Assembly: GCA_051294375.1 (NCBI GenBank)
Contig: CM119264.1
Coordinates: 5,417,197 to 5,481,196, forward strand
Source of the DNA: Paraspadella gotoi
Lineage: Eukaryota; Animalia; Chaetognatha
Reading direction: 5' to 3'
DNA length: 64,000 bases
Below the pieces are notes generated by a model. That model worked only from the letters and a program-made list of their open reading frames with translations. It searched no databases and was not told the DNA's origin. Below, one piece after another: positions 780 to 41,107 of this stretch (position 1 is its first letter; every line of letters begins with the position of its first letter). The position numbers were made by a program, and so were the translations under genes.

Positions 780-965
780 ATCTCTCAGTAAGTCTGTGGT
801 CCGTCTGTCTCACCTCTATGGACGAGCCGATGCAGGCTCTTCCCGCTCCTCGCCAACCAACTCGTTCAAGGCGAAACTCGTCGTTGATGGAGAGACGCCT
901 GACGCTAACAGGCGAAAAAAGAGCGGAAGTTCGTCGTCGCCTGGAGATCGGGAAACAGGCGTCGT

Positions 966-1009
<44 letters not shown>

Positions 1010-2555
1010 GATGATGATGACCATGACGACGATGAAAATGAAGACGATGATGATGATGATAACTAATCTCCCACCCGTCTCTTCGTCGACCACGCGCGCC
1101 TCGATCTTCGCCCCTCGATCCAAGAGAAGTCGCGCCATCTCCAGGTCGCCGGCCTCGAGGGCGTAGAAAAGAGGCGTGGCCATCGCGTCGCCCATGTTGC
1201 GAAAATCAACCATCACTTCGGAACCGCGTCGCTTAGGGGGTGGGGAGGTTGTAGGAGTGGTGGTGAAAGTTCTAGCTCGAGAAAAAAATTGTACCCTGAA
1301 CTAAGTTAAATATAATATATATATTATAAGCTACACAATTTTCAACTTATTCTCGATCTCAGTCGCTTAGATTTTTCTCATTCCTATTTCTTTCAGTGAC
1401 TTTTATGTTGTAGTAGTTTATTTATTTTAACAACACAAAAAAGCTAATGACGAGGGCTTTTTAAATTCGATTCTCTTCTTCAATCTGAAGCGATCAATTA
1501 ATCAATTAATCAATTAATGCCCGACTCTATCGATCGATTCATCGATCCAAAGAAAACCAATTCGTCTAAAAAAAAATAGCATCACCGAGCATTACCTCCA
1601 TCAATTCCCGCGCGGCGGCCACGTTTCCGGCGAGCACATGATGAGCGAGCGACATCGAGTCGGACACCTGTTTGAGCAGCAACGAGATTTCTGCGTTGCC
1701 CTTTTGTTCGGAGAATTCGATGACGGAGACGCCGTCTCGTGAGGCGTCGACGAAGCAGCACCACGCGTTCACCAGTTTCCTGACGACGATAATAAGTTTA
1801 AAATAAATTTTAAATGTCACACTAATTTTAATAATTAAAATAACAGTTGAAGGAAGACAGAAAATTAATGAAAACAAATCTATTTGCGATTATCTAAGAC
1901 TTATGATCATTAATAAAATAATGAAGAACATTAAGCAACAGCGGTTAGTCACGGACGTGACTTAAATATTATATTCTCTCAGTTTAGTTTATTACTAATA
2001 CTAGTTGGAAAAATTGAATGACAGATCCCGTGATGTGTGCCATTTTAATGTCATTCACTAGAAATAGTTGTGATTAAATATTTTATCTCTTTTCTCATTA
2101 GTCAAGTCCTGCTTAAGATAAACGTCCTTAACAACTATTATCATATTAACTGATTAACATGTTATTATGCTAACTAGTAATGGGTTTAAGGTGTAAATAC
2201 AGATAATATAGAGAAGTATGTTAGACCAAATCGTTTACTACAGTATGTAAATTAGATTTACCTGACGCCCCCGATGTCCCCCAACGCGACGGCCTTCCAA
2301 TATCCGGGTGAGAAGTCGGCCAGAAGGCGTCGCAACGACACGTCGAAGGGCGGCGTCGACGCGGCGCCGCGGGAACGGCGCCAGGCGTCGAGACGGCGCC
2401 AACGGGCGTCGCCGAGTCTCTCGATTCCGTCCAAATCGATGTGAGCGGAATCGAGCGAGGAGACGTCAGCGCCGCAGCGGAGCAGCGCCTGCGGAGTCGG
2501 GGAGAGTTGAGCTGAAGTACTCTCTCACTCTCTCTCTCTCTCCTCTCTTCTCTCT

Positions 2556-32130: not shown

Positions 32131-33249
32131 CTGTTATTTTTTTCTTGCAGCCCTTTCTTCGCGTCACGTTCCGGCTTCGGCCACGGAGCGTCGGAGCCGA
32201 GGCGGCGAGGGAGAGAAAACTTCCCACGCAAACTCATTTGCATATTTGCCCCATTTTTTATCACCCGCAAATCGTCAATAATTCATGGGGGAGGCTTATG
32301 GCCCGCGGAGGATTTCGACTGGAGACGAGAGACGCATCCCTCCTTTTTTCTAGTCACGAGGCGTTCAAGTTATTTTTTTAAGACGCGCTCGTCGATCGGT
32401 TCGGTCAGAACTTCTATAACGTTTCTTTCGTCGGTCTGTCAGTAATCGTCCGCTTTTTAAAGCCGAAGTGGTTTATTTTCTACGCGCGGAAAAAATGGCT
32501 TTAAAGTTTAGTGATGATTGAACTTTCGAGGGAAAACGTTTTTAGTTTGTTTCTCATACGTTGGACTACTTTTTGATTTTCGGCGGCTTTCAGAAAATTT
32601 AACAAATTATAAATGCATAATAAACAAAAACGTTTTTACTCCTCACTACTTCTCGTTCTGTTCTTTCCGAGTTTGATACGGTTTTATTTTCTGTTTGCTA
32701 TTCAAACAAGAACAGAACAAATCTTTTTCCCACCGATATCTAAATATCGTAATTCTACCCTATTTCGCAAATATTTTTGCACCGTTTTTTTGTCTATTAG
32801 ATTTGATTTATTGTATTATGTTATCTGAATAAATCTTGATCTCATCATTTTCTCTTCTGTCTGTGTCATGCGCCATCTGACAACTTTACTCTTATTGTTA
32901 TATATTTATATACGTAATTTATGGAACGTTATCAAAAGATTTATTTCTGGGAATTCTTTTTAAGCTTGTACAGGTCAAGAGGAACCTTGAGACTCACCGC
33001 ATTGCATGACGGCAGTAACACGTGTTTTAATAAGGATATAATAAATCTATATAACAACGAAGTTCGAAACGCCAAAAGTCCGAAAGAACGACCAATTACA
33101 TTTTCGTATACTATCATAAACAATTCAAATCAAGTTGACGCAAAGAATACTGGCAAAACTTACCATTAAAAAAGCTGAGAGCCCCCAAATGCATCGTAAT
33201 CAATTAAAACGTTTTTTTTTTGTCTTTTTTAATTCTTTGCCGCTCTAAA

Positions 33250-36200
33250 ATGAATAGAAGAGACGGAATCAGAATGACGCAAATGGCGCCATATTCCATG
33301 GCATCGTCAACCGCTTCGGCAACGTCGCCAGTTGAGTCGATCGCCGACTTGGAATCGGTCTACTTTACGCCACAAGAACCAATCTCGAGTCAGAAAAAAA
33401 GCGATAAAAGATTAAAGAAAAACTCGGGAAAAGGTAATCAATCAGACAGAGGTGATAATTTGCATAATTTAAATTAGAATTTAGTAGATTTGAGAGTGAG
33501 ATTAAATGAAATAAGAATCTCGTTTCAATGGAGACTGCTTGTATCTGTGGATAAGGAGCTTAGTGAGCTGAAGAGTCCTCTGCGCAACTTCTTTAATACT
33601 CTCCAGCAGCAATAGAACGGGTCCTGGGCTTGGAACCAGGCCTGAGGTCCCCAAGGCGGTTTACGGGCATCCTCATACTTCCCGCAGGGTAGGTACCTAA
33701 TGGTCATGAGCTTATGGTTTTACTCAATGAGCCACTGGGTCACGAATGAATATTGAATGGTGTGGTGTTCCATAACGTGCTGATATTGAGGCTTTGGACC
33801 ATCCTTCCATGGGCTTGTTTAATCTGACTATGTCATGCTTGCCTGTGTACTGCAGTGTGTAGCTTTAAACAAAATAAGGATCGATTATTTGTATTCATTA
33901 TTCATAATTATTGGCTAAATCAATAATAGGTAGTGAATCAGAGAATGGAGAGAGCATAGGGCGCATGAAGCGGTTTTAGTTAACAGCCACCGGATCCCAG
34001 CCAGGAGCATCAGCAATTTCAGCATGAATTCTCAGTTTCGAAAGGATTGTCTAAAAAACAATTGCTTTAAAAGCAATTGTCTATAAAGCTATTGTCTAAA
34101 AGGTAATTGTCTAAAAAGCAGGAATGTTCCATTTGAGCGGGGCGCAAATTCACAAGGCCTTTGGAGTTGTAATGTGATTGATTTACGGGTGGGGTTCCCA
34201 TATATTGCAGTTTTTAGGGGAAACGCATGTAGTTAGAGGGCGCCTTGAGAGTCAAGAGCTTCCTCCATTAATAAATAATTTTAAACTATTTTAAACACAA
34301 TTGTCTCTTTTTTTTTTTCCTTTAAGGGATGGCTTGGAATAACGTCTTCCAAGCTTCTATTTTAATTCTGGGCCTCACTGTAGTAGTTCTACTGTCTATA
34401 AATCTTCATATAAACATGAACTGGCAAAGAAAACACTCTGACACACAGTTGACAAAAGCGCCTTTTGAAAGGTTTAAAGAAGAATCAGTTTCTAAAGTTT
34501 CTAAAAGAAACATCTTCTAAAAGTCTCTTCGGGCAACGATCACAATATCCAATCATGATATCCTCAACAGCGGGGAAGGTGGGATAAGACATAATCTANN
34601 NNNNNNNNNNNNNNNNNNNNNNNNNNNNNNNNNNNNNNNNNNNNNNNNNNNNNNNNNNNNNNNNNNNNNNNNNNNNNNNNNNNNNNNNNNNNNNNNNNNN
34701 NNNNNNNNNNNNNNNNNNNNNNNNNNNNNNNNNNNNNNNNNNNNNNNNNNNNNNNNNNNNNNNNNNNNNNNNNNNNNNNNNNNNNNNNNNNNNNNNNNNN
34801 NNNNNNNNNNNNNNNNNNNNNNNNNNNNNNNNNNNNNNNNNNNNNNNNNNNNNNNNNNNNNNNNNNNNNNNNNNNNNNNNNNNNNNNNNNNNNNNNNNNN
34901 NNNNNNNNNNNNNNNNNNNNNNNNNNNNNNNNNNNNNNNNNNNNNNNNNNNNNNNNNNNNNNNNNNNNNNNNNNNNNNNNNNNNNNNNNNNNNNNNNNNN
35001 NNNNNNNNNNNNNNNNNNNNNNNNNNNNNNNNNNNNNNNNNNNNNNNNNNNNNNNNNNNNNNNNNNNNNNNNNNNNNNNNNNNNNNNNNNNNNNNNNNNN
35101 NNNNNNNNNNNNNNNNNNNNCTGGCAAAGAAAACACTCTGACACACAGTTGACAAAAGCTCTTGAAAGGTTTAAAGAAGAATCAGTTTCTAAAGTTTCTA
35201 AAGAAACATCTTCTAAAGTCTCTTCGGGCAACGATCACAATATCCAATATGATATCCTCAGAGAACTGAAATATATCTCGTCTTTGCTCAACACGGAAGG
35301 TGGGATAAGACATAAATCTACTTTGGCCCCGAACAAACAGGATGAGGAAACCAAGAGCACAAGCGAAATCCTTTCTAACGCCACCTTGGTCACTTTGCAA
35401 GACTTTGTTGAATCATTAAAATCTGAAAGATTTGAAGATTTGAAGGAAGAGTTGAAGGAAGTAAGATCAACGCAAACTAATTCCTCGTCAGTTCAAAGGG
35501 AATCACGATCTTCTTCAATAGAATCGTCATTAATTCTAAAAAAGGCGATTGAAGTATTTAAGAAAGTTTTGACACAAAGTAAGTCAAATTTGTGCAATTC
35601 CACAATGATACAGAATGAAATTTTTCAAGTCCAACTCGCTTTGCTAAAATCAAGGTTGAATTGTCCAAATTTTACTTTTGATAACGTCAAATCCCAATTT
35701 GTTCAATCCAAAGAAAAGTCAATGTTTGAGACTTCAAACAGCACGGTGTTGGAAATCAAGGCAGCGGTGCTGGAAATGATGGACAACCTTTCTTACATTT
35801 CCTCAACATCCAAGGAAACACAGGATGTTCTTTCAGAATCCACAAGTTTGATACGGGAATTAAAATTGACGTTGTCCAATCTCTCATCTACCTTGAGCGA
35901 ATCAAGAATTAAATTTGAAACCAGAGATCCTCCAAAAACTGGCAATGATTTTGTTGACTATTCTTTCCATTACTCCTTCATCAACAAATCCCTGCAATTC
36001 CTCGTTTCAAAGACGGATGCCATCTCCGCAACTCTTGACTCAGTGTACCAAAGATCAGCTCGCCACGACTATCGGAGCCCGAGATTTGTCTGCCCGGACG
36101 GCCGCCGCAAGGACTACGATGCCGTTGGTCCACCGGGATCCTGGAACAAGTGTTATTTTTATAAAAAGGAGCCGCCGATGACTCAAACTGCCGCGAATGA

Positions 36201-37722
36201 ATTTTGCGCATCTATTAACGGGCGTCTGCCAGTTATTGAGAATCTGGAAGAGGAAGAGTTCCTGAGGGGAAAAGTCAATGAAAGTTTCTGGATTGGTGCA
36301 GAGAGAACCGGATCTGAGTGGGAGGGCAAGTGGGTTTGGAACAAGACGTTGCCGAGCCAGAGACCAGCATCACTTGATCAAATGTTCCTGCCAATCGCGA
36401 AAGGGTTTTGGAGTGAGGATGAGACCTTCGATTCTCCCTGTGTCATCCATACAGTCAATGGAGGATGGAATACAACCGGGTGTCAAGGAAAGCGTCGGGT
36501 CATCTGTGAAGCGCAGTCGACAAACGACTTCGTGGTTAAGTCTAAAAACAAAGTTGATGAATATTTAGGCCTCGCTGACCAACCTGATTTTTGCCGAAAA
36601 AAATCCTGTTATTGGATTTCGGGACATCGAGCTTCATGGAAAATGGGAGATGAGATTTGCAAAGCGAAGGGAGGGTTTTTGGCACAGATCGGCGGACCAA
36701 AGGAGAATGAGTTTCTTGCCAAGCGGTTGGCCCATCTGGCGGGAGTTTGGGTGGGAGGGAGATGTGTTGGGAGAGGCGGAGGCGAAGGACAATGTAATTG
36801 GAGTTGGGATCAAGGCCAATATCCCATGAAACACAGCTTCACAGACTGGAATACATTCCCAGTCAATGACGTCCAGAACCGTTGCCTAATTTTTAACTCT
36901 ACCGGAAATCCTTCTCACAACTGGAAATATGACTACTGCCGCAAATGGAAAAATTTTATCTGCGAAGTATCCGAAAAATCAAGAGGCGTCTATCCCAACG
37001 TCACCAACTTGGCGATCGAAAATGTCACGAATTCGGACGACTTCGTCTCACAACCAGCCTGCGTCACTCTTTCAATCCGTCACCCGGCTATAATCATACA
37101 AACCAAAAAGTGTTTCCGCTTTGTTCAGACACAAGTGAATGCGAGGAAAGCTAAATATTTTTGCAACAAAGCATTTTCTGGCAAACTTCCGGACGGGACG
37201 GCACTGATGGCGAATGAGACGTGGTTCGTTGCCGCGGTGAAAACATTTTCAAGCAAAGCCACATGGCGGATCAATGAAATAAAAGGATATCCCAAACGTT
37301 CGTCCACTTTAACGTTAAGAGGAGGCTCTACTATTTTCGAAGGAAACGTGTTTGTGAACGGACGACCAGTTTGTGACGACAGTTGGGATTTGAACGACGC
37401 GAAGGTCGTGTGCAGAGAATTCGGTCTCGATGCCAAGGAAGCTACATACGGGTCAAGATTCGGAGGTGTCCCGGATAATTTTCGAATGGATAACGTTAAA
37501 TGCTCTGGGCAAGAATCGAGGCTGTTGTCTTGTCGGTATGATTCCGATGAAAATTGCGATGCGAGCGAAGGAGCCGGCGTCGTCTGCTATCCACGGCCCG
37601 CCGTGCCCGCGTTTAAGCTGAGTAGTTCTAGAATCGTCACTTCGTCATTGGAAGACTCGACGCCATCTTGGTTCATCTGTCAAGAACCTGACGTCGTTAA
37701 AGTAACGAATGTTGATTCTTAA
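33250..37722 (+). CDS. Type II membrane scavenger-receptor/C-type-lectin protein (~959 aa): cytoplasmic tail, TM, coiled-coil-like stalk, CTLD1 (~36091-36510), CTLD2 (~36592-36966), split CTLD3 containing an SRCR domain (~37309-37590)
   Basis: Exon 1 33250-33433 (phase 1) joins the acceptor at 34327; TM ASILILGLTVVVLLSINL; 34421-34598 is a noisy duplicate of 35121-35320 across the gap, so the ORF continues into the 857-aa ORF. CTLD motifs KCYFY..A..FC...GRL, FWIGA, C..WN..C..VICE; SRCR motifs LRGG...EGNV, VCDDSWDLNDAKVVCRE, MDNVKCSGQESRLLSC, AGVVC. Confidence 0.93.
34046..34120. repeat. Five copies of a 15-bp tandem repeat (ATTGTCTAAAAAGCA)
   Basis: attgtctaaaaaaca attgctttaaaagca attgtctataaagct attgtctaaaaggta attgtctaaaaagca, within intron 1 of the lectin gene. 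Confidence 0.85.
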
Positions 37723-40118: not shown

Positions 40119-40879
40119 TCAGAAATACTTAAACTCTCCTCCCCCCACGTCCGGGGAACAAGAGGAAGAGGAGGAGCGAGAGCCTAAGGGAAGAGGAGGA
40201 GGAAGAGGAGGAACGCGAGGAGGAGATGAGGAGGAGCAGGTGGAGGAGACGAAGGAGGCGACGCCGGCGGAGACGAGATGCGCCGTCGTCATTTGAGCCA
40301 CGCCCTCTCGCGACGCCGCTACGGGCGACGCCCCCGACGAACCGAACGCCATCGACGCCGGCACCGCTTCGTCGACCACGCCCATCGCGGATGGCGTCAA
40401 GCGAGAGAGAAAAGTCTTTCCGGCGCGTTCGGCGGCGTCGTTGACGTAATCCCGTTGACGCTCGTCGTTGACGTACTCGTTTTCGGCGCCGTCGCCCGTG
40501 ACGCGAACGCCCGGCGTCTCTCCAGCCCCGGCGCCACCCGCCGCCAGCTGGTAGTGATGCTGGTCCAGCAGCTGCAGCTGGAGAACGTCGTAATCCGCGG
40601 CGGCGCCGCTGAGTCGCTGCTGCTGGTGCTGTTGGTGCTGCTGGTGCTGCTGGTGCTGCTGTTGGTGATGATGATGCAAGGCATCGCTGAGGTGTTGCTG
40701 TTGCAAAGCGGCGCCGATCTGCTGTTGCTGCTGCTGTTGTTGATGCTGCAGCGCTAGGGCGGCGACGCCATAGGAGGCCCGGGCGACGTCGTAGTTAATG
40801 TCGCAGCGGAAATCCGGCGTCGGCGTCGCGGCGTCATAGTGCCGGAGATCGGCGTCGAATTGGGAAGTGGGGATCAAAT
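40119..40879 (-). CDS. Probable terminal exon of a low-complexity protein (polyQ/H, Pro/Ser-rich, tandem YVND motifs)
   Basis: 252-codon open frame with strong GC3 bias, acceptor CCGCCTTCCAG at 40880, stop at 40119. Confidence 0.75.
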
Positions 40880-41107
40880 CTGGAAGGCGGTGGGGATTGG
40901 GAAATGAGTCGTGGGGATATCAAGGTAGTGAAAGAAGAGAGAAGTGGTGATTTAAATTTGGGAACACAGGAATTTTAAATTGGGGGACAGGAAAGGGTGT
41001 TGGGGACGGGGAAGAGATCTGGAGATCATAAAAGTAATGAGGACGGGGATATGGGGAAAAATCTAAAAGCAACAACAATAACAACAACAACAACAACGGA
41101 TTTTTAC

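What the first reader, a model, noticed from the sequence alone, without database searches (positions are those of the whole stretch)
37060..37722. SRCR domain apparently inserted inside a C-type lectin domain
Seen: after two complete CTLDs a third begins (C...KKCFRFVQTQVNARKAKYFCNKAFSGKLP...TWRIN), then a complete 6-Cys group-A SRCR follows, and only after it comes a CTLD-style closing strand (PSWFICQE, compare VICE and FICE of CTLD1/2). Known: the CTLD alpha1 Cys pairs with the beta5 Cys and the long-loop region between them carries the ligand site and tolerates loss. Inference: the SRCR replaces the long loop, giving a nested domain-in-domain. I know of tandem CTLD/SRCR proteins but not this nesting; novelty is unverified.
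Basis: partly seen in the sequence, partly recalled or inferred. Interest (0 to 1): 0.8.

Follow-up and report, generated by a model that had tools for sequence, protein, structure and literature searches.

The report
Scavenger domain nested inside lectin domain
An animal gene for a predicted cell-surface receptor ends in a complete scavenger-receptor (SRCR) domain that sits between two pieces which likely fold together as one C-type lectin domain, so one binding module would be plugged in where the other normally carries its sugar-binding loop.

Summary
The ORF encodes two Pfam Lectin_C domains, then a CTLD-like start (β1, α1 with its Cys, probably α2 and β2), a complete 6-Cys SRCR (Pfam E 7e-17) and a tail ending WFICQE. 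A transcript contig covers this without gaps. A splice joint gives a 959-aa type II membrane protein.

For nesting:
- The α1 Cys and the tail Cys are otherwise unpaired.
- At least one diverged paralog transcript keeps the closing peptide at an in-frame spacing about 73 aa longer than a plain CTLD unit.
- An AlphaFold model given no homologues for the tail makes FICQ a strand, and 28 of the 30 structure matches that span both flanks are CTLD folds.

Against:
- The tail adds nothing to any profile score.
- No homologue with both flanks could be retrieved.

Verdict: probably a real SRCR-in-CTLD insertion (about 0.68), unconfirmed structurally. Ten literature searches did not show it. The scan has noted other domains nested in CTLDs, and SRCRs nested in other hosts, on other DNA. 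New variant of a known kind.

The parts
33250..33433 (+). Exon 1 coding part: predicted cytoplasmic N-terminal tail (61 codons, basic cluster at its end)
   Evidence: Contig 1 of run X1 covers 33154-33430 and joins to 34324 across GT..AG; in-frame spliced model
33434..34326 (+). Phase-1 GT..AG intron, the only one seen in the gene
   Evidence: Joint 'skips 893, GT..AG (cut +3)'; sequence
34344..34400 (+). Predicted single transmembrane anchor (residues 68-86 of the 959-aa model), type II orientation
   Evidence: Highest 19-residue hydropathy window, 2.51
34421..35120 (.). Assembly artefact: duplicated error-rich copy plus a 522-N gap, skipped by the transcript
   Evidence: Both gap flanks align; contig joins 34420 to 35121
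35121..36090 (+). Ser/Thr/Glu-rich stalk of about 320 aa with two Cys and many N-glycosylation sequons; helical neck inferred
   Evidence: no Pfam family above cut-off
36091..36510 (+). CTLD1, 6 Cys, no EPN/QPD/WND
   Evidence: Pfam Lectin_C E 2.2e-14; motif scan
36592..36966 (+). CTLD2, 8 Cys, no EPN/QPD/WND
   Evidence: Pfam Lectin_C E 6.8e-9; motif scan
37060..37305 (+). N-half of putative CTLD3: Cys pair, β1 (KKCFRF), α1 ending in Cys at 37162-37164, β1' (GKLP), probable α2 and β2 (TWRIN), short linker
   Evidence: In-script CTLD profiles; model elements E19-22 and H28-38
37306..37587 (+). Complete group-A SRCR (6 Cys) of the short type also seen in copepod proteins; cation-site residues apparently kept
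   Evidence: Pfam SRCR E 7.2e-17; PDB sequence hits; best full-length relatives; PMC7043408 passages
37588..37722 (+). C-half of putative CTLD3: possible β3-β4 hairpin without Cys, closing strand WFICQE (Cys at 37678-37680), short tail, stop
   Evidence: Kept in paralog contigs; strand E205-208 in model; CTLD matches spanning both flanks

Best explanation
The gene is spliced and encodes a predicted type II membrane receptor whose last unit is likely one C-type lectin-like domain with a whole SRCR domain inserted where its long loop normally lies. Shown: sequence order, gap-free transcript cover, intact SRCR, loss of the long loop, of the inner Cys pair and of the EPN/QPD/WND motifs. Inferred: the tail strand WFICQE pairs with β1 and its Cys bonds to the α1 Cys, closing a compact CTLD that serves as a pedestal. 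The SRCR fits because its two ends lie together. Inferred function: the SRCR's cation site supplies the ligand surface at the tip of a stalked scavenger or pattern-recognition receptor, in place of the lost calcium/sugar loop. The insertion would have arisen at DNA level or lost its introns later, since no intron borders it.
For: (1) Cys parity: outside the SRCR's six, the unit has four Cys; read as separate pieces, the α1 Cys and the tail Cys are orphans. (2) The N-flank is CTLD-like: 8.6 bits, E 1.3e-4 for one comparison, 0 of 1000 shuffles. With a 21-row CTLD profile it aligns model 6-62 to residues 11-69 and ranks first of 1931 SRCR-upstream segments. (3) Paralogs: contig 4 of run X1 matches the end of CTLD2 (26 nt, 2 differences) and the closing peptide DSTPSWFICQEPDV (44 nt, 4 differences), 649 nt apart against 691 here, an in-frame difference of 14 codons. 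Nothing between them was laid at 80%. Contig 5 also matches the closing peptide. That spacing is about 225 aa, against 152 for the plain CTLD1-to-CTLD2 unit. (4) The model built with no homologous rows over residues 178-220 makes FICQ a strand. 30 of the 50 listed structure matches span residues ≤17 to ≥207, and 28 of those 30 are CTLD-fold chains (fold assigned from titles and my knowledge), aligned from first to last strand. (5) A [FYWVIL][IVL]C[EQ] motif follows 13 of 570 other SRCRs, mostly inside a next SRCR. (6) α1 is tied to β5 by C1-C4, and compact CTLDs lack the long loop (PMC9630629); SRCR termini come together (PMC7043408). Two bivalve CTLDs carry inserts of about 20 and 100 residues in the long-loop region.
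Confidence: 0.68

Rival explanations
1. The flanks are decayed remains of one or two CTLDs in a tandem array; they no longer fold together, and the SRCR is an ordinary terminal domain with unstructured neighbours.
For: Tail not significant by profile; α2, β2 and β3-β4 not formed in the model; no Pfam CTLD hit.
Confidence: 0.17
2. The two halves do form a CTLD, but in trans: the tail strand of one subunit completes the N-half of another (domain swap), so the SRCR acts as a hinge spacer in a covalent oligomer.
For: Type II lectins oligomerise through their necks (PMC9630629 passage); long-loop swapping in snake-venom CTL-like proteins is recalled, not tested; Cys parity fits equally.
Against: SRCR ends lie together (PMC7043408), which favours closure in cis; the single-chain model closes in cis, at low confidence.
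Confidence: 0.08
3. The tail is not a CTLD strand; it is a conserved Cys-bearing peptide for an inter-chain bond or partner binding, and the N-flank is a truncated or unrelated small domain.
For: The resemblance rests on about four residues; the conserved stretch extends past the strand (DSTPSW...PDV); defensin-like βαβ folds match the same range.
Against: Its motif copies the ends of CTLD1 and CTLD2 (VICE, FICE); a CTLD N-half needs β5 to fold; 28 of 30 spanning matches are CTLDs.
Confidence: 0.07

Closest known systems
Compact CTLDs (Link/PTR modules, e.g. aggrecan G1, 9dff)
   Different: Here the loop is replaced by a 94-residue folded domain, not deleted; no inner Cys pair; membrane-anchored array
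Class A scavenger receptors (SR-A1, MARCO, SCARA5) and collectin-12/SRCL
   Same: Type II anchor, long stalk, terminal group-A SRCR or CTLD; SCARA5 and MARCO are the top structure matches of the SRCR
   Different: No collagen domain; three lectin-type units; the SRCR is not terminal but enclosed
Class E scavenger receptors (LOX-1, dectin-1 type)
   Same: Type II, neck, CTLDs without EPN/QPD/WND
   Different: Defined by CTLDs only (PMC5119243 passage); single CTLD, no SRCR
Bark beetle/SpBark and other tandem SRCR+CTLD proteins
   Same: SRCR and CTLD in one arthropod receptor; SpBark's CTLD also lacks the sugar motifs (PMC6716108 passages)
   Different: Type I, domains in tandem, complete CTLD with both disulfides
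Bivalve SRCR-CTLD-kringle-LDLa-PAN mosaic proteins (P0258, Crassostrea; P0168, Mizuhopecten)
   Same: SRCR next to a CTLD whose long-loop region carries an insert of about 20-100 residues
   Different: The insert is low-complexity, not a domain; the SRCR lies outside the CTLD; both disulfide pairs are kept

Membership tests
Canonical CTLD (Pfam Lectin_C) | Pfam Lectin_C match above cut-off | tested here: not met
   No hit on the 220-aa unit or on the N-flank; the excised form could be scored only against small in-script profiles, where only the N-half matches
Canonical CTLD (Pfam Lectin_C) | C1 (α1) and C4 (β5) cysteines forming the outer disulfide | tested here: inconclusive
   Both Cys present in fitting motifs; weak model closes the sheet; the bond itself is not shown
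Canonical CTLD (Pfam Lectin_C) | C2-C3 inner disulfide | tested here: not met
   Only one Cys after the SRCR
Canonical CTLD (Pfam Lectin_C) | WIGL-type β2 motif | tested here: inconclusive
   TWRIN aligns to the β2 Trp; TWFVAA is an alternative register
Canonical CTLD (Pfam Lectin_C) | Long loop with EPN/QPD and WND calcium/sugar site | tested here: not met
   Motif scan; only 30 residues between the SRCR end and the last Cys
Compact CTLD fold | β1-α1-α2-β2...β5 core with termini paired and no long loop | tested here: inconclusive
Group A SRCR domain | Pfam SRCR match over the whole model | tested here: met
   62 bits against cut-off 26.1, profile 2-99 of 100
Group A SRCR domain | Six conserved cysteines | tested here: met
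Group A SRCR domain | Conserved cation-site acidic residues | tested here: met
   CDD, MDN and NCxxxE fit D1019/D1020, D1058/D1059(N), N1081 and E1086 of SALSA by motif and spacing (PMC7043408); binding not tested
Class A scavenger receptor | Type II single-pass anchor | tested here: met
   Spliced model with one hydrophobic window at 68-86; topology is predicted
Class A scavenger receptor | Collagen domain | tested here: not met
   No Gly-X-Y run or Pfam collagen hit
Class E scavenger receptor | Only CTLDs in the ectodomain | tested here: not met
   SRCR present
Scavenger or pattern-recognition receptor (function) | Binds polyanions or microbes and mediates uptake | not testable with these tools
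   No functional data

The most novel reading that the evidence does not exclude
A lineage-specific receptor family has transplanted its ligand module: an SRCR with an intact cation site occupies the place of the CTLD calcium/sugar loop, the emptied CTLD is kept by selection as a disulfide-locked pedestal, and the CTLD long loop is a general socket for whole foreign domains that Pfam-based annotation hides.
Probability: 0.4. Interest if true: 0.65.

Novelty: new variant of a known kind. Interest (0 to 1): 0.46.

Why it matters
CTLD and SRCR are two of the commonest recognition modules of animal innate immunity and are described as beads on a string. A nested pair would show the CTLD core acting as a scaffold that tolerates a whole domain at its ligand loop, which is of use for domain-evolution studies and for lectin-scaffold engineering. 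It would also mean that profile-based annotation misses such split CTLDs: this protein is read as CTLD-CTLD-SRCR. The impact is limited because nesting as such is known, the family seems narrow and no function is known.

Tried and rejected
No whole genome is held, so paralogs could not be read from DNA; none lies in the window.

Homologue searches:
- Region 630-857 gave 146 hits; the 120 listed are multi-SRCR proteins with coverage 32-64%.
- The 1.84-billion-protein search gave 8078 hits; none of the 150 listed has a best stretch starting before residue 44.
- CTLD2 plus N-flank: 0 of 708 candidates. CTLD1 to N-flank in shorter proteins: 0 of 565.
- Metagenome scans: 0 of 48 and 5 of 99, matching the SRCR only.
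- Viral scans for extra CTLD rows: 0 of 25 and 0 of 13.
- ESM Atlas: SRCR leads only, at 0.79-0.82; no usable hit for the N-flank.
- PDB sequence search of the N-flank: 0.

Structure:
- The two flanks folded as separate chains gave no verdict (score 0.02); this is not evidence either way.
- Foldseek on the seeded model listed 42 rows, all SRCR-containing chains.
- Alignment A3 put CTLD rows on the SRCR helix and was dropped. A4 was picked from 3 of 432 trial row sets in which both anchors aligned; it still misplaces the first 12 residues of the three SRCR rows and the tail of one CTLD row.

Other:
- No run on record as RNA was listed. X2 and X3 laid nothing.
- The joint 36962-37654 was first considered a splice variant that skips the SRCR. 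Rejected: ends CG..AA and 649 other letters between.
- Assembly error, frameshift or an intron around the SRCR rejected.
- Literature: 10 searches (no papers; 66, 72, 88, 95 listings without this nesting in titles or abstract starts). Subscription journals, InterPro architectures and supplements were not seen.

Full report
Observation. The window is eukaryotic draft assembly with many gaps and GA repeats. 35149-37722 (+) is one open frame of 857 residues. Pfam finds two Lectin_C domains and one SRCR. The last 220 residues (P0002) hold, in order: a Cys pair around KKCFRF, a helix ending KYFC, GKLP, a second helix-like stretch, TWRIN, a 10-residue linker, the SRCR (residues 83-176, six Cys), and 44 residues with WFICQE near their end.

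Gene model. Run X1 is only guessed to be RNA, but its contig 1 joins 33430 to 34324 across GT..AG and 34420 to 35121, and most intronic and upstream bins have zero depth. The 522-N gap is false: its two flanks repeat each other. The spliced model has 959 residues, a 67-residue N-terminal tail, one hydrophobic window at 68-86, a long stalk and 16 N-glycosylation sequons, which fits a type II membrane protein. A second contig covers 36834-37877 with no gap and one synonymous change. So the end of CTLD2, both flanks, the SRCR and the 3' UTR are on one piece, and no intron borders the insert. 36680-36833 is not covered by a listed piece.

Is the N-flank a CTLD half? Against a 5-row CTLD profile it scores 8.6 bits (E 1.3e-4 for one comparison), reached by 0 of 1000 shuffles. 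With 21 rows, 15 of them bacterial CTLD stretches from the 17 loci, 0-4 of 1000 shuffles reach the score; with the N-part profile, 12 of 2000. Among 1931 segments upstream of SRCRs it ranks first with the full profile (model 6-62 on residues 11-69) and ninth with the N-part profile. Pfam itself, hhalign (1.2%) and pairwise comparison with CTLD1 and CTLD2 do not detect it. It is a divergent but probable CTLD N-half.

Is the tail the closing half? By profile, no: shuffled tails score as well as the real one. The support is indirect. First, Cys parity: CTLD1 has 6, CTLD2 8, the SRCR 6, and the flanks 4, of which the α1 Cys and the tail Cys would otherwise be unpaired. Both inner Cys are missing together. 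Second, a similar motif follows 13 of 570 other SRCRs, most of them inside a following SRCR. Third, two further contigs of X1 match the closing peptide at about 91-94% in DNA. One of them also matches the end of CTLD2, with 649 other letters between, against 691 here. Chance is negligible under a uniform model. Read by hand, the printed loose ends continue the likeness in frame (SRI..S.LD before the peptide, H.W.YD before the CTLD2 Cys) and reach a stop six codons after the match. The paralog's unit is about 225 residues against 152 for a plain CTLD unit, which fits a kept insert, but its middle was not seen. The two contigs may be one gene or two.

Mechanism. In CTLDs, C1-C4 ties α1 to β5, the long loop carries the calcium sites, and compact CTLDs lack it (PMC9630629, passages). 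[quoted passage not shown] Two bivalve CTLDs carry long low-complexity inserts in the long-loop region. The simplest reading is therefore an SRCR that replaced the long loop, leaving a disulfide-closed pedestal that presents a cation-dependent binding face at the tip of a stalked receptor. CTLD1 and CTLD2 lack EPN/QPD/WND, so classical sugar binding is unlikely anywhere in the protein. Folding in cis, ligand and immune role are all inferred.

Relatives and novelty. No protein with both flanks was found. The SRCR is of a short type whose named closest relatives are copepod proteins; the organism itself is not identified. Ten literature searches did not show this nesting. I read passages of PMC6716108, PMC11797021, PMC5119243 and PMC3927616; they describe tandem SRCR and CTLD combinations or domain mobility, not nesting. 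Supplements, subscription papers and InterPro were not seen. Earlier notes of this scan report a CTLD in a CTLD, a pentraxin in a CTLD and SRCRs in a MAM domain on other DNA; they are unchecked leads and suggest the theme recurs.

Verdict. Real sequence feature. Nested domain most likely (0.68), with decayed remnants (0.17), trans completion (0.08) and an unrelated Cys tail (0.07) as rivals. New variant of a known kind; interest 0.46.

Noticed in passing
window 33500-33750 (intron 1): A repeated element: dozens of related contigs of run X1 lie here at summed depth above 2000. The minus strand has a weak twister-ribozyme-like match at 33624-33667 (16.3 bits, gathering 37.6, E 0.69); folding z-score 0.40. 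Possibly a transcribed mobile repeat; not established.
   Followed up: partly
window 34421-35120: False scaffold gap with an error-rich duplicate of the first 180 bases of the right flank; it would split or truncate the gene in automatic annotation.
   Followed up: yes
window 36592-36966: CTLD2 has an extra Cys pair (RC...QC) just after β2, at the base of the long loop near where the SRCR sits in the third unit.
   Followed up: no
window 36626-36664: A low-depth contig of X1 matches CTLD2's first helix with 6 differences and continues with a CTLD-like motif: another paralog.
   Followed up: no
window 905-1300 (-): Exon-like frame with an ankyrin repeat (Pfam Ank E 9e-5); further pieces probably lie upstream on the minus strand.
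   Followed up: partly
window 40119-40919 (-): Open frame of 266 codons rich in Gln, His, Ala and Ser, with no Pfam family above cut-off.
   Followed up: no
P0168 residues 159-408, P0258 residues 165-334: Bivalve mosaic proteins whose CTLD carries a Lys/Arg/Pro-rich insert of about 100 and 20 residues in the long-loop region, so Pfam sees only the N-half.
   Followed up: partly
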